This document shows, in pieces, positions 33,237 through 46,451 of a stretch of 64,000 nucleotides of DNA. Both the position numbers and the translations under genes were made by a program. Below the pieces are notes generated by a model, which was not told where the DNA came from, ran no database searches, and saw nothing but the letters and a program-made list of their open reading frames with translations. The DNA is from Vicinamibacteria bacterium (GTDB lineage Bacteria > Acidobacteriota > Vicinamibacteria > Fen-336), in contig JAFGSN010000052.1 in assembly GCA_016934575.1 (NCBI GenBank), positions 3,868-67,867 of the forward strand, in the 5' to 3' direction. Each line of letters begins with the position of its first letter. The stretch's first letter is position 1.

Positions 33237-33775
33237 CGCGCGCGCGACGACGTTTCGCCTTCTACGCCGTCATCGTCGTGAGCGTCTTCGTCGCGGACCA
33301 GATCATCAAGCGAATCGTCGACCGGCTGTTCATGCTGCACGAAAGCCATGAGATCATCCCCGGCATGCTGAATCTCACGCATACCCGCAACTGGGGAGCG
33401 GCGTTCGGTCTGTTTTCGGACCGGACGCTGCCCGCGCAGACCGTCATCCTGACTCTCGTGAGCATGGCGGCGCTCGTCGCCATCTTCCTGTACTTCATTC
33501 GACTTCCCGCCGGCCGCGTTCTGCCCCACGCGGGGCTCTCTCTGGTGCTGGGCGGGGCGCTCGGCAATCTGGCCGACAGAATCCGTGTTGGATACGTGAC
33601 CGACTTCGTGGACGTCTATTGGCGTGAATACCACTGGCCGACGTTCAACGTCGCCGACTCGGCGATCACCATCGGCGTCGGCCTGCTGCTCATCGACATG
33701 CTCCGCGACCGAACGCCGCGAACGACCGAGTCCGGAGCCGTCAATCCCCGCGTCGCCGCGGAAAGGATGGAGTAA
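33233..33775 (+). CDS. lspA: Lipoprotein signal peptidase (signal peptidase II)
   Basis: ATGA overlap with ileS stop; NWGAAFGL and FNVADSAI motifs; 4 TM segments. Confidence 0.85.
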   Translation: MTRARRRFAFYAVIVVSVFVADQIIKRIVDRLFMLHESHEIIPGMLNLTHTRNWGAAFGLFSDRTLPAQTVILTLVSMAALVAIFLYFIRLPAGRVLPHAGLSLVLGGALGNLADRIRVGYVTDFVDVYWREYHWPTFNVADSAITIGVGLLLIDMLRDRTPRTTESGAVNPRVAAERME

Positions 33776-34771
33776 ATGTGGCCCCGTATCTTTTCAGTGC
33801 GCGCCTTTGAGATCCCCGGCTCTCCGATCGGTCTCACGATTCTCCTCGTGGGTTTGGCGCTCGTCGCGCTCGTGTGGTTCGCCGCCCTCTGGATGCGAAA
33901 ACGGAGCGCGAGCGGAGCGCGAGCGATCGAGTACGCCGCATACGCCGCCGCCGCCGTTCTGATCGCGGCATTCCTCCTGCCCGGCCGTCGTCTGGGGCCC
34001 TTCACTCTCCACACATACGGTTTGACGCTCGCCGTCGCGTTCCTTGTCGGGCTCTGGATCGTCGCGCGCCGCGCGCGCAAGGAAGGGCTCGAAGTCGCGC
34101 GGATGACCGACCTGTCGATCTTCATGCTGATCGCGGGCCTGATCGGAGCCAAGCTCTTCATGGTGATCGTCGAGTGGCGCCATTTCTCGCGTCACTTCCA
34201 ATGGCGCGACATCTGGTCGTTGCTGCAGAGCGGGGGCGTCTTCTATGGCGGCCTGCTCGTCGCGCTGCCCGTCGCCTGGTGGTACATGAGGAAACACGGG
34301 CTTCCAACATGGAAAGCGCTGGACGTTCTGGCCCAGGGTCTCGTGCTGGGTCAAGCGATCGGACGCCTGGGCTGCTTCTCCGCGGGCTGCTGTTACGGTC
34401 GCGGCTTTCAAGGCGCCTGGGCAGTGACGTTTCGCGACATCGAGGCATGGCGAACGCTCGGCACTCCGCTGGACACGCCGCTCCATCCGACCCAGCTCTA
34501 CGAATCCGCCGCGGCGCTGCTCATCTTTTTCCTTCTCGTCTGGCTCGCCCCGCGCAAGCGATTCCATGGCCAGATCGCGCTCGTCTACCTTCTCGCCTAT
34601 TCCTCGGCGCGCTTCGTGGTCGAGTTCTTTAGAGGAGATTCTGGAAGGGGCCTGCTCTTCGGCAACGCGCTCTCAACCGCCCAGGTCGTCGGCATCGTGA
34701 TCGTTGTCGTGACGCTGGCGATCATGCCCTATCTCGCCAAGACGCAACGCGTCACCACGCCGGGCGCATGA
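33776..34771 (+). CDS. lgt: Phosphatidylglycerol--prolipoprotein diacylglyceryl transferase
   Basis: Starts directly after lspA TAA; polytopic; Lgt signature region HTYGLTLAVAFLVGLWI and GRLGCFSAGCCYG. Confidence 0.85.
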   Translation: MWPRIFSVRAFEIPGSPIGLTILLVGLALVALVWFAALWMRKRSASGARAIEYAAYAAAAVLIAAFLLPGRRLGPFTLHTYGLTLAVAFLVGLWIVARRARKEGLEVARMTDLSIFMLIAGLIGAKLFMVIVEWRHFSRHFQWRDIWSLLQSGGVFYGGLLVALPVAWWYMRKHGLPTWKALDVLAQGLVLGQAIGRLGCFSAGCCYGRGFQGAWAVTFRDIEAWRTLGTPLDTPLHPTQLYESAAALLIFFLLVWLAPRKRFHGQIALVYLLAYSSARFVVEFFRGDSGRGLLFGNALSTAQVVGIVIVVVTLAIMPYLAKTQRVTTPGA

Positions 34772-34813: not shown

Positions 34814-35812
34814 ATGCCGGACGATATCAGAATGCGCGTGGACGCAAGCGGCGCGGACTCCCGTCTCGACTCCTGGCTGGCGCGCGTCATGCCGGAGCAT
34901 TCACGCTCGCGGATAAGGGACTGGATTGAACGGGGATTCGTCACGATCGACGGCGCGCTTCCCCGTCCCGCGACACGACTTCGCTCCGGACAGGCCGTGC
35001 GCGTCACGATGCCGCCGATCTTGGCGGCGGAACCGCTGCCGGAAGCGCTGCCATTGCACATCGTCCATGAGGACGCGAATCTCATCGTGATCGACAAACC
35101 CGCCGGCCTTGTCGTTCATCCGGGCGCCGGCGTTTCAAGCGGCACGCTCGTCAACGCCCTGTTGCATCATGTCCGAGACCTCTCCGGCGTGGGCGGAGTC
35201 TTGCGCCCCGGCATCGTCCACCGTCTCGACCGCGGCACTTCAGGCCTGTTGGTCGTCGCCAAGGACGACGCGACGCATCGCGATCTCGTCCTTCAGTTCT
35301 CGGGTCGGACCGTCGAAAAGAACTATCTGGCCGTGACGCTGGGCGAACCGCGTCCCGCGCGCGGCGTCGTTCAGGCGCCGATCGGGCGCGACGCCGCGCA
35401 TCGTCACAAGATGTCCACGCGCGCGGCGCGCGGGCGTCCGGCGACGACCGAATACGAAACGATCGAGACGTTCGACGGCGCCGCGCTGCTGCGAGTGCGA
35501 TTATTGACCGGACGTACGCATCAGATCCGCGTGCACCTGACCTCGATCGGACATCCCCTGGCCGGCGACGCCGTCTATGGCGGCGGCCGGACGCCGCCCA
35601 CGCGCAACCCCTTGACGCACGAGGCATTGCTGCGTTTCACGCGTCCCGCGCTCCATGCAACGCTGCTCGCTTTCGAGCACCCGTCCCTTCGCCGCCGTCT
35701 GGTCTTTGAAAGTCCGCCTCCGGAAGATCTGGAGCGCTTGATCGACGATCTTCGCGCCGCAAGAAAGGCGGCCCTGGGCGGCCACGCGCGAACCGCTCCG
35801 GCAAACGGCTGA
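34814..35812 (+). CDS. rluD: 23S rRNA pseudouridine synthase, RluA family with N-terminal S4 domain (RluD-like)
   Basis: S4 domain RLDSWLARVM...; catalytic HRLDRGTSGLLVVAK motif. Confidence 0.75.
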   Translation: MPDDIRMRVDASGADSRLDSWLARVMPEHSRSRIRDWIERGFVTIDGALPRPATRLRSGQAVRVTMPPILAAEPLPEALPLHIVHEDANLIVIDKPAGLVVHPGAGVSSGTLVNALLHHVRDLSGVGGVLRPGIVHRLDRGTSGLLVVAKDDATHRDLVLQFSGRTVEKNYLAVTLGEPRPARGVVQAPIGRDAAHRHKMSTRAARGRPATTEYETIETFDGAALLRVRLLTGRTHQIRVHLTSIGHPLAGDAVYGGGRTPPTRNPLTHEALLRFTRPALHATLLAFEHPSLRRRLVFESPPPEDLERLIDDLRAARKAALGGHARTAPANG

Positions 35813-35899
35813 GCCTCATGGCCCGCACCCTGGACGGCCGGCGTCAATCGAGACAGAATCCGTCTTCGGAACGATAATAGTATCGGAGACGAATGGAAA

Positions 35900-36469
35900 A
35901 TGGAGAACCGTTCTTCGCGCCCCAACACGACCGGCGGCGCGCTACGACTCGACTCGCGCACCATCCATGAAGGCAAGGTCTTCTCCGTCGAAGCGGTCGA
36001 GGTTATGGAACCGGGGGAAATTCGATCCATGCGCGAGGTCGTCCGACATCGCGGATCGGCGGCCGTGCTGCCGATTCATGACGACGGCCGCCTGTCGCTT
36101 ATTCGGCAGTACCGCTTCCCCGTTGACGATCGCGTCTGGGAGCTGCCCGCCGGCAGGATTGAACAGGGAGAGACGCCCGCTCAAAGCGCGGCGCGCGAGA
36201 TGGAGGAAGAAATCGGATTGCGGGCCGAATCGATCGAGCCCCTGGTCGTGTATTTTTCGACTCCCGGTTTCTGTGATGAAACGATGCACGTCTTCCGCGC
36301 CACGCGCCTTTCGCGCGTCCCGCCGCGCCCCGAAGTCGACGAAAAAATCGAAGCGCGCGTGTTTTCCCTCGACGAGGCGCGCGCGATGATCGCGCGCGGC
36401 GAGATCCGCGACGGCAAGACCTTGATCGCCCTTCTTCTGGAGAGCGAGCGACAGAGGAGATCGTCATGA
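35900..36469 (+). CDS. NUDIX hydrolase (ADP-ribose pyrophosphatase-like)
   Basis: Nudix box GRIEQGETPAQSAAREMEEEIGL. Confidence 0.75.
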   Translation: MENRSSRPNTTGGALRLDSRTIHEGKVFSVEAVEVMEPGEIRSMREVVRHRGSAAVLPIHDDGRLSLIRQYRFPVDDRVWELPAGRIEQGETPAQSAAREMEEEIGLRAESIEPLVVYFSTPGFCDETMHVFRATRLSRVPPRPEVDEKIEARVFSLDEARAMIARGEIRDGKTLIALLLESERQRRSS

Positions 36470-36966
36470 CCGACCGACGTCATACGCGCAGGCGCACGAT
36501 GTCCAACGTTCGCAGCGGCGTCCTCTCGGTGGGTTCGCGCAAGCACATCGTCGCCGTCGTCGACCTGAGTCCGGAAGGCGCCTTTCTCACGACGCGAGCG
36601 GAGGTCTCGGCCGCGGATGAAATGACGCTCGAGCTGATGCTGCCCCGCCGCAGCCGCGTCGTCCGCCTGCCGTGCCGTCTGGTCTGGCGCAGCGAACGCT
36701 TCGACGCGACCACGGGGCACCCGGCGGGCATCGCGGTCCGCTTCGAGCCGTTGGACGCCGAGACGAATCGACACATCGAAGAATTCGCCCGTACCGGCTT
36801 TAGGCTGTCGGAACAGCCGGCGACGTCGCGTTACGAGTACATCATCATCGAGCGCAAAGACGTCGACGTCGACGAGCTCAACCAGCTCGGCCGCGAAGGA
36901 TGGGCGCTGGTCGCGACGCCCCTGTCACGACGCGGAATGCGACTGGTGCTGATGCGCCCGCTCTGA
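36466..36966 (+). CDS. PilZ domain protein fused to C-terminal DUF4177-like domain
   Basis: ATGA overlap with preceding gene; canonical PilZ motifs RRHTRRR (RxxxR) and DLSPEGAFL (D.S.GG-like); C-terminal YEYIIIER...LNQLGREGWALV resembles DUF4177. Confidence 0.7.
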   Translation: MTDRRHTRRRTMSNVRSGVLSVGSRKHIVAVVDLSPEGAFLTTRAEVSAADEMTLELMLPRRSRVVRLPCRLVWRSERFDATTGHPAGIAVRFEPLDAETNRHIEEFARTGFRLSEQPATSRYEYIIIERKDVDVDELNQLGREGWALVATPLSRRGMRLVLMRPL

Positions 36967-37045
36967 TGCGCGAATCACGCGCCGGATGGGCCGCGGGTCG
37001 GCTCTCGGCCCCCTGGATCCCCTGGAGAGGTCGAATCGATACGCC

Positions 37046-40000
37046 ATGCGTTTGAGATTGTCGCGACGCGCCGGCCTGATCACCGTTCTGTTGTTGGTCT
37101 TCTGTTTGGGCCTGTTCAGCTTCGGATTGTTCCCCCAGGATCCCTTGCGTCGCCTGGCGGAACAAAGACTTCGCGCCGCGGTAGGTCCGCGCTGCCGCAT
37201 CGGTCAGCTTCATGTCATTCCCATCCGCCTGGCCGTCTCGGCCCGTGACGTCGTGCTGGCAAGCGACGGCTTCGAGCTCTCCATCGAACGAGGCAGCGCG
37301 GCACTTTCCCTCGATGCGCTCCTTGGCCGCGCCCTGTCCCTGAGGTCGCTCACTCTGCATCGGCCGCTCCTCCGTCTCAATTCGGCGCCGGCATCCGATG
37401 AAACGCCCCCCTTGGCGCTTCCCCCGATCGTCCTGAAACGCGTTCTGGTCACCGACGGCCGTTTCATTTACGCCGGCGCCAAGGAGCGTTTCGATCTCTC
37501 CGGCATAGAAGTCCGCGGCGGCATGGGAGAGGGCCGGCTCGACGTTCGGGTCCGTCACGGCCAGTTCCTTAAACCGCGTCGGATCGACATCGAGTCACTT
37601 CATGCCCGTCTGATGATCTCGCCGCGATTGGCGCTCGTCATCGAGTCATTCGAAGGCGCGACACGCGGCTCCCGGTTGTCGGTCGACGGCCGCTTGGGAT
37701 CGCTTCTCGACGACTGGAGCCCTGATTTGCGTTTCTCCGGAACGATCGCTCTGGACGAACTATCTCCCCCCGCACCGCAGCTTCATGGCGCCGTCTTCCT
37801 CGAAGGTCGTCTGTCGAAGCGTCAAGACGATCTCGAATGGAACGTCGTTATGAATGGCGCCCGGCTCGATGTCGCCGGCTGGACGATTGATCGCATGCGC
37901 GCATCGCTCAGCCAGTCCTCGGACGCCGGGCTGCGCGCGCGGGCGAAACTCGAAATGTTGAGCGGCGGAATCGACGTTCAGGCGACCATGCGAGAAAAGA
38001 AGTTGATCGCCACGCTCGCCGCGCGCCGCCTGCGTTTCGACCAACGAACGCTTCCCGCGGCCTTCCATCAAGCGGGCGTCGATTTCGACGCATCCGCGAG
38101 AGGCCGTCTCGACGGTCGGCTCACGACTCTGATCAGCGCCCGCGCCACGACGCATATCGGCCGAGACATCGTTGCGAACATCGACGCCGAAAGCTCCGGC
38201 TGGCTGAATCCCACGCGGCAGACGACTGACATGAAGTTCAAGGCCGTGACCGACGCTCGACCGCGTCATGCGTCGGATACGCCCATGTCAATCGTTCGCG
38301 CGACGCTCACGCTGAACGGCCGCGCTGCGGGCGCGCTGAACGATCTCTCCATCGAGAGCGTCCTGGAAGGCCTGGCGACCATCGCGACGCCGTCCGGCGG
38401 TCGTCACGTCGAGATCGCGGGCGAGCTGCGTCGCGTGCATGACCGCCTGACCTCCCGCATCGAAGCGCTGGGCGTCGGCGACGGCGCGCGCCTGGAGCTT
38501 GAAGCGACCGCTGGCCATGTGCGGAACCTCGCGATCAAGGCCGCCAACGTGAATCTGGCGGAGATCCTTCCCGAGTGGAGCGGAAAGGCGGACTGGGTGC
38601 TCGAGGCGTCCGGGCCGCCACAACGCCTCGCGGGTCATTCCCAACTCTCGATCCGTGACGCGTCCTGGCGTTTTCTGGACATCGGATCGGCGACCGCCGC
38701 TTACAAAGGAACGGCGAGCGATGGACGCCTCTCACTACGCGTGCCCGCCTTCAACGTCGCTGGCGACGGCGATCTGCGTCTGGGACGCCGTCCGATCCTG
38801 AACGCTTCGATCTCTTTCGAACGTTTTCCTTTGTCGCCGTTCGCCGCCCTGGTCGAGCGTCCTCTGGAAGGAACGCTCTCCGGCCTCGTCGTCGTCGCTC
38901 TTCCGCTCGATCGCCCCGAGAAGCTGCGCGTGGAGACGCGCCTGTCGGCTCTGAACGCTTCAAGCGAAAGACTCGACGTTCGTCTCGAACGACCGCTTGT
39001 CGTTCGACTCGACGAGACGACGATTGCGATCGACGATCTCGCTCTTCTCGGACCGGCCTTTCTGCTCGAGACGCATGGCGCCTCGAGCCGCCTTGAAAAC
39101 GGCCCCTTGGATCTGTCCGTGAAGCTTTCCGCGGATCTTGCCCGACTGCCGTACCGTTCACGCACGGACCTCGCGGGCGAAGTCGCCGCCGACATTCGCC
39201 TGCGCGGCTCCAGAAAGTCGCCCTCCGCCACGGGCACGATCCTTCTGAGTCGTGTCAACGCCGGCAGCCCGAAGCTCCCGCCGCTTGCGCTGGACTCGGG
39301 ACGTATCACGCTCGACGGCGACGCTTTTCGCTTCGACGACCTCGCCGCCGCGTTCGCGAATGGAACATTGAAACTGCATGGCCGCCTGCCGTTCGAATCC
39401 CTTCGTCCGCGCGACGCTTCTCGCCCGCATTCCGCGGAGGCGGACGTGGATATCGAATGGAGCGGCATCGAAGCCGCGCGGATTCTCGCGTCGCTCGCTC
39501 CTCGCGGCGTCGAGGGCGGCGCGCCTCGAATCAACGCTCGACTTTCAGGACGCCTCCACATCGGCGGCCGGCCGACGAGCCTGGAATCGATACGCGCGCG
39601 CCTGGTCTTCAACGAAACGCCTCTGACTATCGAGGAAGCGGGCGTCGTGATCTCTCAGGCAATCCTGACGATGGATGGCGGCGTCGTCCACACCGACGGC
39701 GTCGCGCTGGACAGCGAGCAAGGCGAGTTCTCCATGCGTGGAGACGTCGATCTGCTTCGACGACGTCTCGACGTCGGCGGCGACGGGGCGCTGAATCTGC
39801 GGATGCTTTCGCCTTTCCTCAGCGATATGGCGTTCGGCGGTCGCGCCGAGGCGCACGTCGCCGTCGGAGGAAGCTTCGACTCTCCCGACATGCGCGGCAG
39901 CGTCGACATCAAGGACGGCTTGCTGCGATTCCGCGAACTGCGCCAGCCGCTCACGGCAATCGACGCAAGATTGCAGTTCGATCGCGCTGCGATCCGATTA

Positions 40001-43000
40001 CGCGACGCTTCGGCCTCGTTCGGCGGCGGCGCGCTGACGCTTGACGGCGGCGCGCGACTGGAAGGCGGTGGCGTGACCGGCGTTCGGCTCGACGCGCGCG
40101 CGCGCGACGTCGCTCTCCACTATCCGCCCGGCCTGCGAAGCCGCCTTGACGCCGAAGTCGCGCTTACCGGCAGGTCCGGCGCGCTTCGGCTCACGGGCCG
40201 CATCGCTTCCCAGCGCGCGCTCTTCGATCGTGATCTGATGACGGAAGAAACCTTGTTCGCCTCCGTGCCCGAAGCGACGGCCTCTCCGCTTCTGCGGTCC
40301 ATCGGCCTTGATCTCGCCATCGACACGGCCACGCCGCTGCGGATGAACAACGACGTCGCCCGCCTTGAAGCCAAGGGAACGCTCGTGATCCGGGGCACCA
40401 TGGAAACGCCCGAGCCCTATGGCGCGCTCGACGTCGTCGTTCCCGGCGGCAAGTTCTTCTTCCAGGGACAGGAATATTCGATCACCGAGGGCCAGATCGC
40501 CTATCGGGGCGACTGGGAGCCCGTCCTTCGTCTCTCGGCCGAGACGTATATCGAGAAGCAGCGCCAATCCGAACCTGGGAACAAGCGCATCGACCGTTAT
40601 CTCGTCAGGGTGAACGTCAATGGAACGGTGTTCGAGATCTCTCAAGCCTGGACCGCGAAACGTTTCGGTTTGCAGTCGCCGGATCAAATCCGAGACGCCT
40701 TTTCAGCGACGTCCGACTCCATCACTGACGAGCAGCAGCTCCTTGACGAGCTTTTCGGACGCAGGGCCGATCAGCACGCGTTGTCGCTGCTGGCGGGCCG
40801 TATCTCGCGCGGATTGGCCGCCGATCTCCGCAAGCTGGGTCTGGACGAGGTGAGCATTGAGCCGCAGCTCGTGGCGCGCGAGACCGATCCGGGAGCGCGG
40901 TTCACCTTCGGCAAGAATCTGACGGATGACGTGGACCTCGTCTACTCCACGAGCCTGGGCAACGCCGAGCGGTCTTTCGTGAAAATCGAGGCGCGCCCCG
41001 GGTGGAACGTCGCGATCACGATCCAACGCCAGATTGAAGGCGCCGGCGGCGGCGCTTTCACTTACGGCGCCGGACAGAGGATCCGCCTGGGCGGACCTCG
41101 ACGTGACAAAGCGTTCGCGACCGAGGAACGAATAACGATACGCGCCCTGACTTTCGAAGGCTGTCCGGCATGTGAGACGGAGGCCTTCGCCGGAGTCCTG
41201 GAGCTTAAAGTCGGCGACCGCGTGACGCCGTTCGAGCTTCAGGACGCCGCCGAACGTCTGAGAAGCCGTCTTGCGAAAGACGGATACATCGAGGCCGCCG
41301 TCAGCGCGCATCACGTCGGCGACGGCGTCGTCTTCAAAGTGCGCGCCGGCCGTCGCTATGACTGGCGCGTCGAGGGCATCTCCAATCACCCCGATCTCGA
41401 AAGCGAGATCAAAGGCGCGCTCTTCGAAGAGGAAGCCGTCGACCGTGGAATCGCTCGCCTGCTCGATATCGCGCGCCGCCGCGGTCATCCCCGGGCGCGT
41501 GTCGAGACGCGCGTCGAGAACGAAGACGAGACGCGCCGCCTCGTTTTTATCGTCGAATCCGGCCCGCGCATGAAAATCGACGACGTCCGATTCCCCGGGG
41601 CGCATTCATTGTCTCGTCGAAGGCTTCTCAAGGCGTGCGGCGGCGCGGCCGAGCTGCTCGTGGCGCCGGATCATGCGCGCGCCGCCATCAGCGACGCTTA
41701 TCGCCGGATTTTCCATCTTCGCGCACAGGTCGGAGAGCCGGTCCTCCATGAAAGCGTCGGTCGTGTCGCGATCGAGGTTCCCATCGACGAGGGCGAAGCA
41801 GCGCGGGCCTCCGCCGTCGTATTCGACGGCGCGACTCTTCCCGTCGATGACCTCATCGACGCCTCCGGCCTCGTCGCCGGCGAGCCTTTCGACCCCGTTG
41901 CCGTCGAACGAGCGATCGTCACGGTCATCGAACACTATGCGAAGCTAGGCCATAGCGACGCACGCGTCTCTCTCACGACGTCGCCGGCCGGCGACGGCGA
42001 CCTCGACCTGCGTTTCACGGTCATCGAAGGTCCGCGCCTGCTTCTGCAAGCGATCGAGATCGAGGGCTTGACGCGGACGAGCGAAGCGCTCGTCCGCCGG
42101 CGCGTGCCGCTCAAGATCGGCGAACCGCTCGATCCTCGCCGGATGGCGGAAACGGAACGTTGCCTGAGAGGACTGGGCATCTTCGACAGCGTCGTCGTCC
42201 GGCGTGATCCGCAACGGCCCGACGTCGTGCGGATCGAGTTGCGCGAAAGCCCGATTCTCATCGGCGGATACGATCTACGTTACGAGAATCGCGGGGGGAA
42301 GAGGCGGTTCACCGACAACTTGAGCGCGCTTGCCGACGTTGAGTTGCGCAACTTTCTGGGCAGCGCCTTCACCGTCGGCGGCCGGCATCAGATCGGCCAA
42401 GCTCTCCAGGAAAGCCGCGTCTCCCTGCACGGGCCCCTGCCGATCGGCGGCTCCTTCACCGGCTCGGTCTTCCGCCAGTACGAGACTCTGCCCCCGACAT
42501 CGAGCGACGGCGAGCCCGTCGACAGCGACACGCGAGGCTTAAGCTTCCAGCACTCGCTGGATCTTCCCGATCGATGGGCTCTTCTCTATGGCTTTCGACT
42601 GAAGCGAGTGCGCATCTTCGACTTCAGTCCGGTGAACGTCGCCAGCGCCGAGCTTTCGCTGTTGCGCGACTCGCGCGACAATCCACTCGATGCGCGCCGC
42701 GGCCGCTTTCTCAGCCTGAACCTCACGCTGTCCCACCCCCGCCTCGGATCAAGCCTCTCGTTCCTCAAGGGATTCGGACAGGCGTTCGTCATGCGCCGGC
42801 TGGGCGAGAACTGGACCTGGGCGCAGGGTTATCGTCTCGGGCTGGCGCACGTTTTCAGAGAGGAGCCGCTCGTCGCATGGGAGCGCTTCCGGGCGGGCGG
42901 CGTCAACAGCCTGCGTGGTTTCGCCGCTGAAAGCGTGGGACCGCGCGACATCCTCGGCGACCCGCGCGGCGGACAGGCGGTGGTCGTTCTCAATCAAGAG

Positions 43001-43228
43001 CTGCGCTACCACCATCGAAGCGGTTTAGGTTTGTGCTTTTTCTACGACACCGGCGAAGTCTTTCCCTCGATCGGCGAGATGCGCCTGGATTTCCGCCATA
43101 CGGCCGGCGTGGGACCCAGGTGGAACTCGCCCATCGGGCTGCTCCGATTGGATCTTGGATTTCCGCTCGATCGCGAGGGAAATGAAGCGAAACTGCAGTA
43201 TTTCTTCAGCCTGGGACAGGCGTTCTGA
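37046..43228 (+). CDS. Giant envelope protein: TamB/AsmA-like (DUF490) module fused to POTRA + Omp85/TamA-like beta-barrel
   Basis: Uninterrupted 2080-codon ORF (36986..43228); start set at ATG 37046 (MRLRLSRRAGLITVLLLVFCLGLF signal-anchor, GGAGAGG upstream); N-terminal ~1350 aa TamB-like beta-rich repeats ending in DUF490-like C-terminus; then POTRA repeats and Omp85 barrel ending in aromatic beta-signal ...KLQYFFSLGQAF; no in-frame start or signal peptide at junction. Confidence 0.75.
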   Translation: MRLRLSRRAGLITVLLLVFCLGLFSFGLFPQDPLRRLAEQRLRAAVGPRCRIGQLHVIPIRLAVSARDVVLASDGFELSIERGSAALSLDALLGRALSLRSLTLHRPLLRLNSAPASDETPPLALPPIVLKRVLVTDGRFIYAGAKERFDLSGIEVRGGMGEGRLDVRVRHGQFLKPRRIDIESLHARLMISPRLALVIESFEGATRGSRLSVDGRLGSLLDDWSPDLRFSGTIALDELSPPAPQLHGAVFLEGRLSKRQDDLEWNVVMNGARLDVAGWTIDRMRASLSQSSDAGLRARAKLEMLSGGIDVQATMREKKLIATLAARRLRFDQRTLPAAFHQAGVDFDASARGRLDGRLTTLISARATTHIGRDIVANIDAESSGWLNPTRQTTDMKFKAVTDARPRHASDTPMSIVRATLTLNGRAAGALNDLSIESVLEGLATIATPSGGRHVEIAGELRRVHDRLTSRIEALGVGDGARLELEATAGHVRNLAIKAANVNLAEILPEWSGKADWVLEASGPPQRLAGHSQLSIRDASWRFLDIGSATAAYKGTASDGRLSLRVPAFNVAGDGDLRLGRRPILNASISFERFPLSPFAALVERPLEGTLSGLVVVALPLDRPEKLRVETRLSALNASSERLDVRLERPLVVRLDETTIAIDDLALLGPAFLLETHGASSRLENGPLDLSVKLSADLARLPYRSRTDLAGEVAADIRLRGSRKSPSATGTILLSRVNAGSPKLPPLALDSGRITLDGDAFRFDDLAAAFANGTLKLHGRLPFESLRPRDASRPHSAEADVDIEWSGIEAARILASLAPRGVEGGAPRINARLSGRLHIGGRPTSLESIRARLVFNETPLTIEEAGVVISQAILTMDGGVVHTDGVALDSEQGEFSMRGDVDLLRRRLDVGGDGALNLRMLSPFLSDMAFGGRAEAHVAVGGSFDSPDMRGSVDIKDGLLRFRELRQPLTAIDARLQFDRAAIRLRDASASFGGGALTLDGGARLEGGGVTGVRLDARARDVALHYPPGLRSRLDAEVALTGRSGALRLTGRIASQRALFDRDLMTEETLFASVPEATASPLLRSIGLDLAIDTATPLRMNNDVARLEAKGTLVIRGTMETPEPYGALDVVVPGGKFFFQGQEYSITEGQIAYRGDWEPVLRLSAETYIEKQRQSEPGNKRIDRYLVRVNVNGTVFEISQAWTAKRFGLQSPDQIRDAFSATSDSITDEQQLLDELFGRRADQHALSLLAGRISRGLAADLRKLGLDEVSIEPQLVARETDPGARFTFGKNLTDDVDLVYSTSLGNAERSFVKIEARPGWNVAITIQRQIEGAGGGAFTYGAGQRIRLGGPRRDKAFATEERITIRALTFEGCPACETEAFAGVLELKVGDRVTPFELQDAAERLRSRLAKDGYIEAAVSAHHVGDGVVFKVRAGRRYDWRVEGISNHPDLESEIKGALFEEEAVDRGIARLLDIARRRGHPRARVETRVENEDETRRLVFIVESGPRMKIDDVRFPGAHSLSRRRLLKACGGAAELLVAPDHARAAISDAYRRIFHLRAQVGEPVLHESVGRVAIEVPIDEGEAARASAVVFDGATLPVDDLIDASGLVAGEPFDPVAVERAIVTVIEHYAKLGHSDARVSLTTSPAGDGDLDLRFTVIEGPRLLLQAIEIEGLTRTSEALVRRRVPLKIGEPLDPRRMAETERCLRGLGIFDSVVVRRDPQRPDVVRIELRESPILIGGYDLRYENRGGKRRFTDNLSALADVELRNFLGSAFTVGGRHQIGQALQESRVSLHGPLPIGGSFTGSVFRQYETLPPTSSDGEPVDSDTRGLSFQHSLDLPDRWALLYGFRLKRVRIFDFSPVNVASAELSLLRDSRDNPLDARRGRFLSLNLTLSHPRLGSSLSFLKGFGQAFVMRRLGENWTWAQGYRLGLAHVFREEPLVAWERFRAGGVNSLRGFAAESVGPRDILGDPRGGQAVVVLNQELRYHHRSGLGLCFFYDTGEVFPSIGEMRLDFRHTAGVGPRWNSPIGLLRLDLGFPLDREGNEAKLQYFFSLGQAF

Positions 43229-43372
43229 GCTTCCCGAGCCTCCTGGCGATGATGAGTTGTCGCCGCTCACGCCAAAACTTCAAAGAGACCACGAGTGCGG
43301 TACGATGGCGGAGTCCGCGGATCGGCCGACGCCGAAGCCGCTGCCGGCGCGGCGCGGAATGGGAGAGGTCGA

Positions 43373-45079
43373 GTGAGGTTCGGCATCAAGAGATCGACAG
43401 CGTACATTCTTGCGGCGGCGGCTGGCGCCGCCGGCTTGGCGTACCCTGGCCGCGTTCAGGAGGTTCGTTTTACCGACGTGACCGAATCGTCCGGCATCCG
43501 CTTCGAGCACATCAACGGAGCGTTCGGCAAAAGGCTCCTTCCCGAAACCATGGGTGCGGGCGTGGCGCTGTTGGATTACGATAACGACGGACGCCAGGAC
43601 ATCTTTTTCGTCAACTCCACGAGTTTCCATGGCCAGCCTGGGCCCATAGGCCTCCCCGCGCTCTACCATAACAACGGTGATGGAAGCTTCACGGACGTGA
43701 CCCGCGCCGCTGGACTGGCCGTCGCGGTCTACGGCATGGGCGTCACCGTCGCCGACTACGACAACGACGGCTGGGAGGACATATACGTCACGGCGGTCGG
43801 ACCGAACCGATTGTTCCGAAACCTGAACGGCCGGCGCTTCACGGACGCGACAGTTAAGGCGGATGTCGGAGATCCCGGATTCTCGGCAAGCGCGGCGTTC
43901 TTCGATTATGACAATGACGGCTGGCTGGACCTCTTCGTCACCAATTATGTCGAGTGGTCGCAGGCCAAGGACGTCTTCTGCACGCTGGACGGCAGTCGCA
44001 AGTCCTATTGCTCTCCCGAGTCTTATCGCGGCCAGAGTCCCCGTCTCTACCACAACCGGGGCGACGGCACATTCGAGGACGCCACCGCCCGGGCCGGCCT
44101 CCGCGATCCATCGAGCAAGGCCCTGGGCGTGGCGCTCCTGGACATCGATAGCGACGGCTGGCTCGACCTGTTTGTGGCCAACGACACCCAACCCAACAAA
44201 CTCTATCGCAACACCGGCAAGGGCACATTTGTCGACGTCGCGGTTCAGATGGGCGTGGCCTTCAGCGAGTACGGCATCGCCCGGGCCGGCATGGGTACGG
44301 ACGCCGCCGACTACGACGGATCCGGACGAGCCGGCCTGATCGTCGGCAACTTCTCCAATGAGATGATGGCGTTGTTTCATAACGACGGCGACGGGTTCTT
44401 CGTCGACGAAGCCGCGCTGACGACCGTGGGGCATGCGACGTACCTCAAGCTGACCTTCGGCTGCTTCTTCTTCGACTTCGACCTCGATGGGCGCCGCGAC
44501 ATCCTCGGCGCGAACGGCCACATCTGCGACGATATCGCCGCCGCTCACCCGCGGATCGGTTACGCCCAGACCGCTCACCTCTTGCGCAACCTCGGCGGGC
44601 GGCGCTTCGAGGACGTCTCCGGAACGGTCGGCCGCGGGCTGGCCGTTCCGTTCGTCGGCCGCGGGCTGGCGCATGGCGACCTCGACGGGGACGGCGACCT
44701 CGATGTCGTCCTGACCGTCAACCAGGGACGGGCGCGAATGTTCCGCAACGACGGCGGCAACCGCAACGGCTACGTGCGGCTTCGGCTCATCGGAACGCGC
44801 TCCAACCGCAGCGGCATCGGCGCTCGCGTCATCCTGACTCATGCCGGCGGCACACGGCAATGGGCCCTCGTGAAAACTGGATCGAGCTACTGCTCCCAGA
44901 GCGAGCTGCCAATCACTTTCGGCCTGGGCCCGAGGGACAGGCCTGCGCGCATCGAAGTGGCGTGGCCCAGCGGCCAGCGGGATCTCATTACACATCCATC
45001 GTCCAACCGTATGCTCACGATCGTGGAGCGGGAAGGGCTTGTCGCAAGCGGCGTCATCAAGACGGATCGGAAGCGGTAA
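43373..45079 (+). CDS. CRTAC1-family protein (FG-GAP/VCBS repeats + ASPIC/UnbV domain), secreted
   Basis: GTG start 43373 preceded by GGGAGAGG (5-nt spacing); signal peptide ILAAAAGAAGLA; repeated DYDNDGW.D FG-GAP motifs; C-terminal UnbV_ASPIC-like region. Confidence 0.7.
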   Translation: MRFGIKRSTAYILAAAAGAAGLAYPGRVQEVRFTDVTESSGIRFEHINGAFGKRLLPETMGAGVALLDYDNDGRQDIFFVNSTSFHGQPGPIGLPALYHNNGDGSFTDVTRAAGLAVAVYGMGVTVADYDNDGWEDIYVTAVGPNRLFRNLNGRRFTDATVKADVGDPGFSASAAFFDYDNDGWLDLFVTNYVEWSQAKDVFCTLDGSRKSYCSPESYRGQSPRLYHNRGDGTFEDATARAGLRDPSSKALGVALLDIDSDGWLDLFVANDTQPNKLYRNTGKGTFVDVAVQMGVAFSEYGIARAGMGTDAADYDGSGRAGLIVGNFSNEMMALFHNDGDGFFVDEAALTTVGHATYLKLTFGCFFFDFDLDGRRDILGANGHICDDIAAAHPRIGYAQTAHLLRNLGGRRFEDVSGTVGRGLAVPFVGRGLAHGDLDGDGDLDVVLTVNQGRARMFRNDGGNRNGYVRLRLIGTRSNRSGIGARVILTHAGGTRQWALVKTGSSYCSQSELPITFGLGPRDRPARIEVAWPSGQRDLITHPSSNRMLTIVEREGLVASGVIKTDRKR

Positions 45080-46451
45080 GCTTGTCGGCGTCGATGCCGT
45101 GCTTGCGCAGGTAGTAGCCAAGGTTCCGCTGATCGATACCGAGCAGTCGCGCGGCCTCTTTCCGCACACCACCTGAGCCGCCGAGAGCCGCCAGAACGAC
45201 CTCTTTTTCACGCTGTAGAAGCGCCTGCCGTAAATTCATCGGGCTATCCTCGGCGTTCTTGCCTCTGGCCGGCGCAACAGACCCCGGAGCCAGGTCGAGA
45301 GACTCGACGATGTCGCCAATGCTCATGATGATCGTACGCTCGATGGCATTGCCCAGTTCGCGGACGTTGCCGGGCCACGAGTAGGCCGTCATTTCTTCCA
45401 GGCACGACCGTGAGAATGCAGGGGTGGATCGGCCGAGACGAGCGGATACCTTTGCCGCGAAGTGAGCGGCCAGGAGCGGAATGTCGTCGATCCTCTCGCG
45501 CAGCGGAGGGACGACGATACGAATGACATTGAGGCGATAAAAAAGATCCTGCCGAAAACGGCCTTCGGCGACGTCTTTCTCCAGGTCGCTGTTGGTCGCG
45601 GCCATGAGCCGAACGTCGACGCTGGTCGCGCGTTCATCGCCAAGGCGATTGAACTCGCCGTCTTGCACGACACGGAGGATCTTGGCCTGGGCGATGAGCG
45701 GCATGGACCCGACCTCGTCCATGAAAAGAGTGCCTCGATGAGCCAGACGGAAATGTCCCTCCCGATCCGCCACGGCCCCCGTGAAGGCGCCCTTACGATG
45801 GCCGAAAAATTCGCTTTCCCACATCTCCACGGGCACGGCGGCGCAACTGACCCGAACATAGGGAGCCCTGGATCGAGCGCTCCACCGGTGGACGAGGCGG
45901 GCGAGAAGCTCCTTGCCCGTTCCCGATTCGCCGAGGATCAGAACCGTCGAGTCAGTGGGGGCCACGGATTGAATGGTCTTCAACACCTGCCGCCACGCGT
46001 CCGACCGCCCCACCGGGAACTCCGCTCCGTCCTCTCTGCCACGCAGATATTCAAGCTCACGGCGTATCGCTCGCGATTCCATGGCCCGGTCGAGAACGAG
46101 CTCCAAAGCCGAGGGAGCGGCGGGCTTGAGGACATAGTCGGATGCGCCGGCGTGCAGACACTCCACGGCCGAGGACACGGTGCCGAAACCGGTCAACACC
46201 ACGACGGGAACTTCCGGGTAAGATGCTCGCACGCGCCGCACCAGTTCAAGGCCTCCGCCTTCGGGCATCTTGAGATCGGTGAGAACCACGTCGAATGAGC
46301 GGCGCTCGCAGCGCCTCAAAGCCGACTCAACTCCGTCGGCCAGATCGACGTCGAATCCGCGAGACGCCAGCATCTCGCCCAGTGAATTACGGACATAGGT
46401 CTCGTCGTCCACGACAAGGACCTGGCCCCTCCGTGGTCGCCCGTCAGCCAC
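45057..46451 (-). CDS. Sigma-54-dependent two-component response regulator (NtrC family: receiver + AAA+ + Fis HTH)
   Basis: Receiver VLVVDDE...DLKMP; AAA+ GESGTGKE, GAFTGA sigma54-contact motif, ESELFGH-like, arginine finger region; C-terminal HTH; GTG start 46451 two nt after kinase stop. Confidence 0.85.
   Translation of the reverse strand: MADGRPRRGQVLVVDDETYVRNSLGEMLASRGFDVDLADGVESALRRCERRSFDVVLTDLKMPEGGGLELVRRVRASYPEVPVVVLTGFGTVSSAVECLHAGASDYVLKPAAPSALELVLDRAMESRAIRRELEYLRGREDGAEFPVGRSDAWRQVLKTIQSVAPTDSTVLILGESGTGKELLARLVHRWSARSRAPYVRVSCAAVPVEMWESEFFGHRKGAFTGAVADREGHFRLAHRGTLFMDEVGSMPLIAQAKILRVVQDGEFNRLGDERATSVDVRLMAATNSDLEKDVAEGRFRQDLFYRLNVIRIVVPPLRERIDDIPLLAAHFAAKVSARLGRSTPAFSRSCLEEMTAYSWPGNVRELGNAIERTIIMSIGDIVESLDLAPGSVAPARGKNAEDSPMNLRQALLQREKEVVLAALGGSGGVRKEAARLLGIDQRNLGYYLRKHGIDADKLTASDPS

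What the first reader, a model, noticed from the sequence alone, without database searches (positions are those of the whole stretch)
37046..43228. Single 2,061-codon ORF fusing a complete TamB/AsmA-like module to a complete POTRA-Omp85 (TamA/BamA-like) barrel
TamA (an outer-membrane Omp85 barrel with POTRA domains) and TamB (an inner-membrane-anchored, periplasm-spanning DUF490 protein) are normally separate proteins, usually encoded tamA then tamB. Here the order is reversed and both are in one reading frame. There is no stop codon, no in-frame ATG/GTG/TTG near the junction (...AFTYGAGQRIRLGGPRRDKAFATEERITIRALTFEG...), and no signal peptide precedes the POTRA region. A separately translated Omp85 would need a signal peptide. 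The N-terminus has a signal-anchor helix and the C-terminus ends in a typical beta-barrel signal (YFFSLGQAF). If expressed as written, one polypeptide would be anchored in the inner membrane, span the periplasm as an AsmA-like beta-taco bridge, and end as a barrel in the outer membrane. That would be a covalent version of the TamA-TamB (or TIC236-TOC75-like) trans-envelope machine. A PilZ-DUF4177 gene is translationally coupled upstream.
Basis: partly seen in the sequence, partly recalled or inferred. Interest (0 to 1): 0.85.

Follow-up and report, generated by a model that had tools for sequence, protein, structure and literature searches.

The report
Natural single-chain TamB–Omp85 envelope bridge
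One 2,060-codon gene of an uncultured soil Acidobacteriota (Vicinamibacteria) bacterium joins an inner-membrane-anchored TamB lipid-bridge protein to its BamA-like outer-membrane barrel partner; the fusion is real, old and widespread in that group, and I found no paper describing it.

Summary
Window 37046-43228 (+) is one stop-free ORF of 2,060 aa. It has an N-terminal signal-anchor helix, a TamB-like part with a complete DUF490, a 15-residue polar linker, five POTRA domains and a 16-strand Omp85 barrel.

It is not an artefact. A separate assembly gives the identical ORF. About 60 protein clusters, down to 25% identity, share the architecture. A profile of the junction finds 1,175 clusters (50% identity) at E<=1e-30, and the best 150 all span the junction. 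Named sources are 13 Acidobacteriota/Vicinamibacteria MAGs and one MAG labelled Clostridia.

The linker is always short (9-23 aa, median 13) and never hydrophobic. No internal start codon or signal peptide exists. The six-strand C-terminal module that in E. coli TamB forms a hybrid barrel with TamA is kept whole, and the chain continues where free TamB ends.

The cultured relative Luteitalea has separate tamB and omp85 genes in the same order, with overlapping stop and start (TGATG) and a cleavable signal peptide. That is a plausible pre-fusion state.

Best reading: a covalent translocation and assembly module. Not tested: whether the protein stays uncleaved, and whether its TamB end docks in its own barrel. 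The PilZ "translational coupling" claim is wrong. Verdict: new variant of a known kind, moderately high interest.

The parts
37046..43228 (+). Coding sequence of the fused TamB-POTRA5-Omp85 protein (2,060 aa plus stop). It equals NCBI MBN2369540.1, which is called from the upstream ATG at 36986 as 2,080 aa.
   Evidence: no internal stop. (P0001, 100% identical). (accession). (identical ORF in a separate Logan assembly of SRR13394437).
36986..37045 (+). Possible 20-codon N-terminal extension (alternative ATG). Probably not translated.
   Evidence: a GGAGAGG stretch lies about 15 nt upstream of ATG 37046 and none lies before 36986; the 68%-identical homologue P0002 starts MRLTFSRRAGLITV, matching the 37046 start.
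37076..37132 (+). N-terminal signal-anchor helix (aa 11-29, LITVLLLVFCLGLFSFGLF). It is the only strongly hydrophobic segment in the protein.
   Evidence: Kyte-Doolittle 2.68; the rest of the protein is 1.26 or lower; nearly all of about 60 fused relatives have one N-terminal hydrophobic segment and nothing above 1.84 elsewhere; the exceptions, such as P0026 and P0048, look N-terminally cut.
37133..40009 (+). Long TamB/AsmA-like periplasmic region (aa 30-988). Its last part was modelled as a run of long beta-strands.
   Evidence: DUF748 7-113, below its cut-off; YhdP 924-1038. (AF2 of aa 901-2060: continuous strands over aa 910-1206, pLDDT about 75-90). Aa 30-900 were not modelled.
40010..40993 (+). 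DUF490 / TamB domain (PF04357), aa 989-1316.
   Evidence: E 6.7e-26, 91.9 bits against a cut-off of 22.4.
40853..41089 (+). C-terminal six-strand beta module of DUF490 (aa 1270-1348). Its last strand, GGAFTYGAGQRIRL, has a beta-signal-like end. This is the counterpart of the E. coli TamB strands that form the hybrid barrel with TamA.
   Evidence: the region aligns with E. coli TamB up to its last residue and with free acidobacterial TamBs; position 1346 is hydrophobic in 170/188 and position 1348 is F/L/W in 172/188, followed by G (165/188) and G (132/188). Searches give the published E. coli structures.
41090..41134 (+). Junction linker GGPRRDKAFATEERI (aa 1349-1363). It is polar and basic, with no start codon and no signal peptide.
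   Evidence: linker median 13 aa, range 9-23, in 213 family members; G/R/A/P-rich. AF2 pLDDT falls below 50 only here.
41135..42256 (+). Five POTRA domains (about aa 1367-1433, 1437-1504, 1510-1577, 1587-1660, 1669-1734).
   Evidence: POTRA E 2.1e-27. (BamA model TIGR03303 aligned end to end, 2-741 of 741). (AF2 pLDDT 85-95, five beta-alpha-alpha-beta-beta units).
42257..43225 (+). 16-strand Omp85 barrel (aa 1738-2060).
   Evidence: Omp85 E 1.8e-33. (16 strands, pLDDT about 90). (Foldseek best hits are BamA chains at E 1e-39; TamA at 1e-31).
42911..42922 (+). Loop-6 LRGF motif, the Omp85 hallmark (V/I/L)RG(F/Y), aa 1956-1959.
   Evidence: R in 187/188, G in 184/188 and F/Y in 182/188 family members.
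43199..43225 (+). C-terminal beta-signal YFFSLGQAF.
   Evidence: nearly all full-length relatives end in an aromatic residue (mostly F), most often in the motif ..G(Q/H)AF.
36466..36966 (+). Upstream PilZ-domain gene. It is a same-strand neighbour and possibly co-transcribed, but it is not a conserved partner of the fusion.
   Evidence: PilZ E 2.2e-11; DUF4177 below its cut-off. (present upstream only in the window and L002). (the only promoter-like site in 35500-44000 is at 35850-35878, before the NUDIX gene).

Best explanation
[quoted passage not shown] The tamB stop codon and the Omp85 signal peptide were replaced by a linker of about 13 residues.

**How it most likely works (all steps below are inferred).**
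1. The N-terminal helix inserts into the inner membrane as an uncleaved signal-anchor, as in E. coli TamB.
2. The remaining roughly 2,030 residues are exported through Sec.
3. The TamB part folds into a beta-taco groove that spans the periplasm and carries phospholipids towards the outer membrane.
4. [quoted passage not shown]
5. The six-strand end of DUF490 docks on strand 1 of the barrel in the same chain, giving an intramolecular version of the E. coli TamA-TamB hybrid barrel.
6. Because the linker is so short, the five POTRA domains would form a closed loop under the barrel.

**What is shown here.** The fused reading frame and its conservation. The single N-terminal hydrophobic segment. 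The absence of any internal start codon or signal peptide. The retention of every TamB and Omp85 hallmark motif. The split same-order gene pair in a cultured relative.

**What is not shown.** Export, membrane topology, lipid transport, intramolecular docking, and survival of the protein as one uncleaved chain.
For: **Real and conserved.**
- The ORF is identical in a separate assembly.
- About 60 clusters of 1,950-2,400 aa, at 25-68% identity, carry TamB + POTRA + Omp85.
- A junction profile finds 1,175 clusters (50% identity) at E<=1e-30, and all of the best 150 span the junction.
- Twelve loci in species-representative genomes cover the junction, and 11 have one stop-free frame.

**Junction anatomy.**
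- The linker is 9-23 aa (median 13), G/R/A/P-rich and not hydrophobic, in 213 sequences.
- No in-frame start codon lies near it, and no promoter-like site.
- Each chain has one hydrophobic segment, at the N-terminus.

**The TamB part is complete.**
- DUF490 scores E 6.7e-26.
- The six-strand C-terminal module aligns residue by residue with free acidobacterial TamBs and with E. coli TamB up to its last residue.
- The beta-signal-like end of the last strand is conserved.

**The Omp85 part is complete.**
- The BamA model aligns end to end.
- AF2 gives five POTRA domains and 16 strands at pLDDT 86.
- Foldseek finds BamA at E 1e-39.
- The loop-6 RGF motif is invariant and the C-terminal ..GQAF is kept.

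**Evolutionary precursor.** Luteitalea sp. TBR-22 has tamB (1,375 aa) then omp85 (986 aa) with a TGATG overlap, and its Omp85 has a cleavable signal peptide. The window's Omp85 part is 27% identical to that protein.

**Published basis.**
- In E. coli the last TamB strand pairs with TamA beta-1, and six TamB strands sit in the membrane (PMC12800296, PMC13119328).
- TamB is a lipid bridge that its Omp85 partner anchors to the outer membrane (PMC10345924).

**Hint of docking.** In an AF2 model without the beta-taco, the six-strand module still has pLDDT 71-87.
Against: - There is no expression, proteomic or structural data for any family member. All sources are uncultured MAGs or metagenomes.
- The tools returned no model coordinates or PAE, so docking of the DUF490 end onto its own barrel is untested. 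A direct-coupling analysis on 188 sequences gave only noise.
- The geometry is unresolved. A linker of 9-23 residues must bring the N-terminus of POTRA1 close to barrel strand 1. From my own recollection of BAM structures, not checked here, POTRA1 lies well away from the barrel. The POTRA arm must therefore fold back, or the hybrid barrel is not formed.
- Cleavage in the disordered linker after export is not excluded.
- Whether these genomes also carry a canonical BamA (needed to insert the barrel) or other TamB/AsmA paralogues could not be checked. None lies in the 64-kb window.
- Scores are far below NCBI's equivalog cut-offs for TamB, TamA and BamA. It is a distant relative, not an orthologue of the studied proteins.
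Confidence: 0.7

Rival explanations
1. Polyprotein. The fusion is translated and exported as one chain and then cut in the linker by a periplasmic protease. This releases an ordinary TamB and an ordinary Omp85, which then associate non-covalently. Under this reading the fusion only serves to export an Omp85 that lacks a signal peptide, in 1:1 amounts.
For: The linker is the only low-confidence, presumably disordered, stretch between well-folded parts (pLDDT below 50). It is rich in G, R, P and A, and the preceding GG is conserved. After cleavage the TamB part would regain a free beta-signal-like C-terminus like that of free TamBs.
Against: Beyond the GG, the linker has no conserved motif in sequence or spacing that would mark a specific cleavage site. 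Linker length is tightly bounded (90% within 11-17 aa) across clades only about 25% identical, which fits a structural tether better than a disposable spacer. No precedent was found in the papers searched.
Confidence: 0.15
2. Type Vd-like autotransporter. The TamB-like N-terminal part is a passenger that the POTRA-Omp85 part moves to the cell surface, as in PlpD (passenger-POTRA-Omp85 in one chain).
For: The order of parts (N-terminal extension, POTRA, 16-strand Omp85 barrel in one polypeptide) resembles PlpD (PMC11116518, listed).
Against: The N-terminus is a TamB-type uncleaved hydrophobic anchor. The passenger would be a full TamB with DUF490. There are five BamA-like POTRA domains, not one. 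The split homologues in Luteitalea form an ordinary tamB-omp85 pair.
Confidence: 0.05
3. Two proteins from one ORF. The Omp85 part is translated separately from an internal start codon.
For: None found. In-frame GTG codons exist at aa 1312 and 1393.
Against: Neither GTG is followed by a signal peptide, and both lie inside folded elements. No hydrophobic stretch occurs at the junction in any of 213 relatives. No promoter-like site lies near the junction. An Omp85 without a signal peptide could not be exported.
Confidence: 0.03
4. Assembly or sequencing artefact that joins separate tamB and omp85 genes.
For: Some assemblies of related genes do show splits. L002 is frameshifted. The P0028 cluster includes 1,580-aa and 576-aa versions on the same contigs.
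Against: Those splits lie inside the POTRA or TamB regions, not at the junction, and sit beside intact 2,229-aa copies, so they look like sequencing errors. The fusion itself recurs in hundreds of independent assemblies from many sources.
Confidence: 0.01

Closest known systems
E. coli TAM (TamA + TamB, tamA-tamB operon)
   Same: - TamB-type N-terminal anchor, long beta-rich periplasmic part and DUF490 with the six-strand C-terminal module.
- Omp85 partner with POTRA domains, a 16-strand barrel, the loop-6 RGF motif and a C-terminal beta-signal.
- Expected role in outer-membrane lipid and protein homeostasis.
-.
   Different: - One polypeptide instead of two.
- Gene order is TamB then Omp85; E. 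coli has tamA then tamB.
- Five POTRA domains, not three.
- No Omp85 signal peptide.
- The TamB beta-signal strand is internal, not at a free C-terminus.
- Scores are far below the TamA and TamB equivalog cut-offs.
TamB paired with a second, TamA-like BamA copy in Acidobacteria (Heinz et al. 2015, PMC4494059); here seen as Luteitalea sp. TBR-22 tamB-omp85
   Same: - Same phylum (and, for Luteitalea, the same class).
- TamB partnered with a BamA-like Omp85 that has many POTRA domains.
- In Luteitalea the genes have the same order, with overlapping stop and start.
-.
   Different: - Two genes, and the Omp85 has a cleavable signal peptide.
- The Omp85 appears to have about two more N-terminal POTRA domains: the window's first POTRA aligns from residue 196 of the 986-aa protein. 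The total of about seven is an estimate, not a count.
- Only 27-28% identity to the fused protein.
- Heinz et al. describe BamA-TamB order for Acidobacteria and do not mention fusions (0 hits for 'fusion' or 'fused').
Borrelia TamB-BamA and chloroplast TIC236-TOC75
   Same: A TamB-family bridge whose C-terminal DUF490 binds the POTRA-bearing Omp85 of the outer membrane. In Borrelia that partner is a five-POTRA BamA and the gene order is tamB-bamA. Sources: PMC5582053 and PMC11361582 (listed); the five-POTRA BamA and the tamB-bamA order are from Heinz et al.; PMC10345924.
   Different: The association is non-covalent, between separate proteins.
Single-chain Omp85 proteins with N-terminal extensions: PlpD (type Vd) and the 'Omp85 WD40-like' BamA-BamB-like fusions (Heinz and Lithgow 2014, PMC4104836)
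   Same: They are precedents for an Omp85 fused to a partner or passenger at its N-terminus.
   Different: - Their extension is a lipase passenger or a BamB-like propeller, not an inner-membrane-anchored bridge.
- They do not reach the inner membrane.
- TamB fusions are not among the ten Omp85 classes described in that paper.
VirB10 of type IV secretion systems (from my own knowledge, not checked here)
   Same: One polypeptide inserted in both the inner and the outer membrane.
   Different: It is unrelated in sequence and fold. Its outer-membrane part is helical, and it belongs to a secretion channel.

Membership tests
TamB / AsmA-like (DUF490, PF04357) | C-terminal DUF490 domain | tested here: met
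   PF04357, E 6.7e-26, 91.9 bits against a cut-off of 22.4, aa 989-1316; the rest of the domain, up to the position of the E. coli C-terminus, aligns to aa 1270-1348.
TamB / AsmA-like (DUF490, PF04357) | N-terminal uncleaved signal-anchor helix | tested here: inconclusive
   there is one strongly hydrophobic N-terminal segment (aa 11-29), conserved in the family. Whether it is cleaved or retained cannot be decided without a signal-peptide predictor or an experiment.
TamB / AsmA-like (DUF490, PF04357) | Long beta-taco (repeating beta-groove) periplasmic body | tested here: inconclusive
   aa 910-1206 are modelled as continuous long strands (pLDDT 75-90). No coordinates were returned to confirm a groove. 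Aa 30-900 were not modelled; they give only a YhdP hit and a sub-threshold DUF748 hit.
TamB / AsmA-like (DUF490, PF04357) | Free C-terminal beta-signal strand at the end of the protein | tested here: not met
   the strand is present and conserved but internal. The chain continues into a linker and POTRA1.
TamB equivalog (NCBIfam NF047952) | Score above the curated cut-off | tested here: not met
   46.9 bits against a cut-off of 825.
Omp85 superfamily (BamA/TamA type) | POTRA repeats followed by a 16-strand barrel (PF07244 + PF01103) | tested here: met
   POTRA E 2.1e-27, Omp85 E 1.8e-33; five POTRA units and 16 strands. Foldseek finds BamA at E 1e-39.
Omp85 superfamily (BamA/TamA type) | Loop-6 (V/I/L)RG(F/Y) motif and a C-terminal aromatic beta-signal | tested here: met
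   LRGF at aa 1956-1959, invariant in 188 relatives; the protein ends ..GQAF.
Omp85 superfamily (BamA/TamA type) | Own N-terminal cleavable signal peptide | tested here: not met
   no hydrophobic stretch precedes POTRA1 in any family member. The Luteitalea homologue has one.
BamA equivalog (TIGR03303) / TamA equivalog (NF047950) | Score above the curated cut-off | tested here: not met
   BamA 189.9 bits against 297.15, although aligned over the full model (2-741 of 741). TamA 94.6 bits against 625, covering the barrel end only.
TAM complex as defined in Proteobacteria | Two separate subunits, with a three-POTRA TamA | tested here: not met
   one chain with five POTRA domains. It may work like a TAM but is not a member of the two-subunit system as defined.
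TAM complex as defined in Proteobacteria | Hybrid barrel between the last TamB strand and Omp85 beta-1 | not testable with these tools
   No model coordinates or PAE were returned. The coupling analysis was underpowered.
TAM complex as defined in Proteobacteria | Phospholipid transport or outer-membrane-protein assembly activity | not testable with these tools
   This needs genetics or biochemistry. No cultured carrier of the fusion was found.

The most novel reading that the evidence does not exclude
The protein stays uncleaved. It is therefore a single polypeptide held by an alpha-helix in the inner membrane and by a beta-barrel in the outer membrane. Its own DUF490 end is permanently docked in the lateral gate of its own Omp85 barrel. 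This would be a natural covalent bridge-like lipid transporter plus Omp85 machine, used by a large group of soil Acidobacteriota. [quoted passage not shown]
Probability: 0.55. Interest if true: 0.75.

Novelty: new variant of a known kind. Interest (0 to 1): 0.62.

Why it matters
**1. It bears on a current dispute about TAM.**
- One 2026 cryo-EM study sees TamB engage and disengage from the TamA barrel (PMC12800296).
- Another argues that the hybrid barrel is stable and is the functional state, with DUF490 acting as an Omp85-docking domain (PMC13119328).
- A conserved natural fusion with a tether of about 13 residues shows that, at least in this lineage, the two modules can work without ever separating.

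**2. It sets a hard geometric limit for any model.** The TamB C-terminus and the N-terminus of POTRA1 must lie within about 9-23 residues of each other.

**3. It poses a biogenesis problem that can be tested.** A chain of about 2,060 residues must be anchored in the inner membrane, cross the periplasm, and have its far end inserted into the outer membrane as a barrel. Few single polypeptides are known to sit in both membranes.

**4. It offers a single-chain construct.** This could help structural work on the whole bridge and guide engineered E. coli TamB-TamA fusions.

**5. It fills in the history of TAM in Acidobacteria.** That phylum has been proposed as the place where TamA arose from a duplicated BamA (PMC4494059).

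**Caveat.** Fusion of interacting partners is a common evolutionary event, and annotation pipelines already see the architecture. The surprise is moderate, not extreme.

Tried and rejected
- **phmmer of aa 901-1400 against PDB sequences:** no hits. The junction profile against PDB returned only POTRA-containing chains. TamB did not appear, so it gave no residue-level link to the solved TamB. I used a MAFFT alignment with the E. coli TamB sequence instead.
- **The search for related loci with the 17-sequence junction alignment:** The 6-sequence version worked but reaches only the close clade, so the taxonomic range of the distant clade (about 26% identity) rests on a few named proteins.
- **First AF2 submission:** too large; repeated with 36 sequences. 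Only pLDDT and secondary structure are returned, so intramolecular docking could not be read.
- **Mean-field direct-coupling analysis on 188 C-terminal parts.** The first run was dominated by gap-column artefacts. After filtering, a few barrel hairpins were recovered but long-range pairs were noise. I rejected it as evidence either way.
- **afdb50 fold search:** not available.
- **Literature:** six full-text searches and keyword checks in six TAM, Omp85 or AsmA papers found no mention of a natural TamB-Omp85 fusion. This is absence within the held library only.
- **PilZ as a functional partner:** rejected, because it is not conserved upstream.
- **Other copies:** no other Omp85 or TamB copy lies in the window. 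The window has no tRNA or Rfam matches.

Full report
**1. Observation**

- Window 37046-43228 (+) is one ORF of 2,060 sense codons with no internal stop.
- An in-frame ATG at 36986 would add 20 residues. The 68%-identical homologue P0002 begins at the equivalent of 37046, and a GGAGAGG stretch lies about 15 nt upstream of it.
- Pfam places DUF748 (7-113, below its cut-off), YhdP (924-1038), TamB/DUF490 (989-1316, E 6.7e-26), POTRA (from 1364) and Omp85 (1769-2060, E 1.8e-33) in this one chain.
- NCBIfam's BamA model aligns end to end over residues 1364-2060. Its score, 189.9 bits, is below the equivalog cut-off of 297. The TamA and TamB equivalogs score far below their cut-offs.
- The only strongly hydrophobic 19-residue window is residues 11-29.
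- No in-frame ATG, GTG or TTG occurs between residues 1313 and 1392.
- No promoter-like site lies near the junction.

**2. Not an artefact**

- The protein is NCBI MBN2369540.1 from a Vicinamibacteria MAG. A separate Logan assembly of run SRR13394437 gives the identical ORF.
- A search of 5.8 billion proteins returned about 60 clusters of 1,950-2,400 residues with the same TamB + POTRA + Omp85 domains. Identities were 68%, then 32-38%, then about 25-28%.
- A profile of only the junction (the last 95 residues of TamB plus POTRA1 and part of POTRA2), searched against 1.84 billion representatives, found 1,175 clusters at E<=1e-30. All of the best 150 match across the whole junction. The complete ones are mostly about 1,940-2,350 residues long.
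- In one genome per species (GTDB), 12 loci cover the junction. Eleven are Acidobacteriota or Vicinamibacteria MAGs and one is labelled Clostridia.
- Eleven of these 12 loci keep one stop-free frame. L002 has frameshifts away from the junction.

**3. Anatomy of the junction**

- Across 213 sequences, the linker between the last DUF490 strand and the first POTRA strand is 9-23 residues long (median 13). It is rich in G, R, A and P and poor in hydrophobic residues.
- No family member has a second hydrophobic segment.
- Free-standing acidobacterial TamBs end ...TYAIDVRVRHVF. E. coli TamB ends ...QALDLLYQFEF. Both align column for column with AFTYGAGQRIRL of the window protein, which then continues GGPRRDKAFATEE-RITIRALTFEG.
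- The six-strand C-terminal module is therefore complete.
- Its last strand keeps a beta-signal-like end: hydrophobic at position 1346 in 170/188 sequences, F/L/W at position 1348 in 172/188, then GG.

**4. The Omp85 part**

- AF2 of residues 1255-2060 (pLDDT 86, pTM 0.70) shows five beta-alpha-alpha-beta-beta POTRA units and 16 barrel strands.
- Foldseek ranks BamA chains first (E 1e-39) and TamA lower (E 1e-31).
- The loop-6 (V/L/I)RG(F/Y) motif is invariant, and the chain ends ..GQAF.
- The closest unfused Omp85 proteins are at most 30% identical: a Rokuibacteriota BamA, myxobacterial BamA/TamA-family proteins, and an Acidobacteriia protein.
- Hits at 42-46% identity in that search are fragments of fused genes on short contigs.

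**5. Origin**

- In the complete genome of Luteitalea sp. TBR-22, a cultured Vicinamibacteria member, tamB (1,375 aa) is followed directly by an omp85 gene (986 aa). The stop and start codons overlap as TGATG.
- That Omp85 begins with a classical signal peptide, MRRSLAALVVLLALGHAGPARS. It appears to have about two more N-terminal POTRA domains than the window protein.
- A second metagenomic contig has the same layout: an upstream gene, cut at the contig end and not identified, ends exactly where an omp85 gene starts.
- The fusion therefore needs only the loss of the stop codon and replacement of the signal peptide by a short linker.
- The window's two halves are 27-28% identical to the Luteitalea pair, so the fusion is old.
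- This fits Heinz et al. 2015, who found a second, TamA-like BamA with up to seven POTRA domains next to TamB in Acidobacteria. They do not mention fusions.

**6. Mechanism**

- Published E. coli structures show that the last TamB strand pairs with TamA strand 1 and that six TamB strands sit in the membrane plane.
- With an even number of strands, the TamB C-terminus returns to the periplasmic face next to strand 1. This step is my inference.
- In the fused protein a linker of about 13 residues starts there and leads to POTRA1. POTRA5 leads back into strand 1. If the hybrid barrel forms, the five POTRA domains must therefore close a loop under the barrel.
- The six-strand module keeps pLDDT 71-87 in a model that lacks the beta-taco. 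This suggests that it packs on the Omp85 part. No coordinates were available, and a coupling analysis on 188 sequences was too noisy. Docking therefore remains inferred.
- Also inferred from knowledge of TamB and OMP biogenesis: export by Sec with a retained N-terminal anchor, insertion of the barrel by BAM, and lipid transport along the groove.

**7. Rivals**

- Cleavage in the linker after export (polyprotein) cannot be excluded. The variable sequence but bounded length of the linker argues mildly against it.
- A PlpD-like passenger reading, internal initiation and an assembly artefact are each contradicted by several results. See the rival entries.

**8. Surroundings**

- Upstream on the same strand lie lspA, lgt, an RluD-type pseudouridine synthase, a NUDIX gene and a PilZ gene.
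- rluD and NUDIX recur upstream in L002 and L004 (in L004 NUDIX lies 1.5 kb after rluD). NUDIX also recurs in L007. PilZ recurs only in L002.
- More distant members sit in unrelated neighbourhoods with no tamA nearby.
- PilZ ends 79 nt before the likely start, so it is not translationally coupled.

**9. Novelty**

- Annotation pipelines already label such proteins with TamB or BamA names, or both.
- Six literature searches and keyword checks in six TAM, Omp85 or AsmA papers found no description of a natural TamB-Omp85 fusion.
- I rate it a new variant of a known kind.

**10. Verdict**

- Interest is 0.62. The fusion gives a natural single-chain TAM that bears on the dispute over stable versus transient TamA-TamB engagement and poses a testable two-membrane biogenesis problem.
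- Against that, partner fusions are common, and the key functional points are still untested.

Noticed in passing
window 33233-34771 (+): lspA (Peptidase_A8) and lgt, the lipoprotein-maturation genes, lie about 2-4 kb upstream on the same strand as the fusion. They are followed by rluD-like, NUDIX and PilZ genes. This may be an envelope-biogenesis neighbourhood.
   Followed up: partly
window 35900-36966 (+): The NUDIX and PilZ genes overlap by 4 nt (ATGA at 36466-36469). This is the true translationally coupled pair in the region. The only sigma-70-like site in 35500-44000 lies just before the NUDIX gene (35850-35878).
   Followed up: partly
L017 8001-15088 (Luteitalea sp. TBR-22, AP024452): Split tamB (1,375 aa) and omp85 (986 aa, with a signal peptide and apparently about two more N-terminal POTRA domains than the window protein) in the same order as the fusion, with a TGATG stop/start overlap. 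Biotin-carboxylase and biotin-carrier genes lie just upstream.
   Followed up: yes
L013 4155-10466: A 2,103-aa ORF with the same TamB-POTRA-Omp85 architecture, on a 161-kb contig of 55% G+C from a MAG labelled 'uncultured Clostridia bacterium'. Either the bin is mislabelled or the fusion occurs outside Acidobacteriota.
   Followed up: partly
L002 4300-10400; protein cluster of P0028: Some long contigs carry frameshifted or split versions of fused genes. L002 changes frame twice. The P0028 cluster has 1,580-aa and 576-aa pieces on the same contigs, beside intact 2,229-aa copies. The breaks are not at the TamB/Omp85 junction and look like sequencing errors.
   Followed up: partly
proteins P0020-P0059: A second, larger-bodied clade of fused proteins (about 2,200-2,350 aa, about 26% identical to the window protein) also includes Vicinamibacteria MAGs (P0054). 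Whether one genome can carry members of both clades was not checked.
   Followed up: no
window 43295-45079 (+) and about 45057-46450 (-): Downstream neighbours are an FG-GAP/ASPIC (UnbV) repeat protein and, on the opposite strand, a sigma-54-dependent response regulator. The Luteitalea tamB-omp85 locus also has a sigma-54 activator a few kb downstream.
   Followed up: no
window 1-64000: No tRNA genes and no Rfam family at gathering score anywhere in the 64-kb window. No second Omp85 or TamB homologue either.
   Followed up: yes
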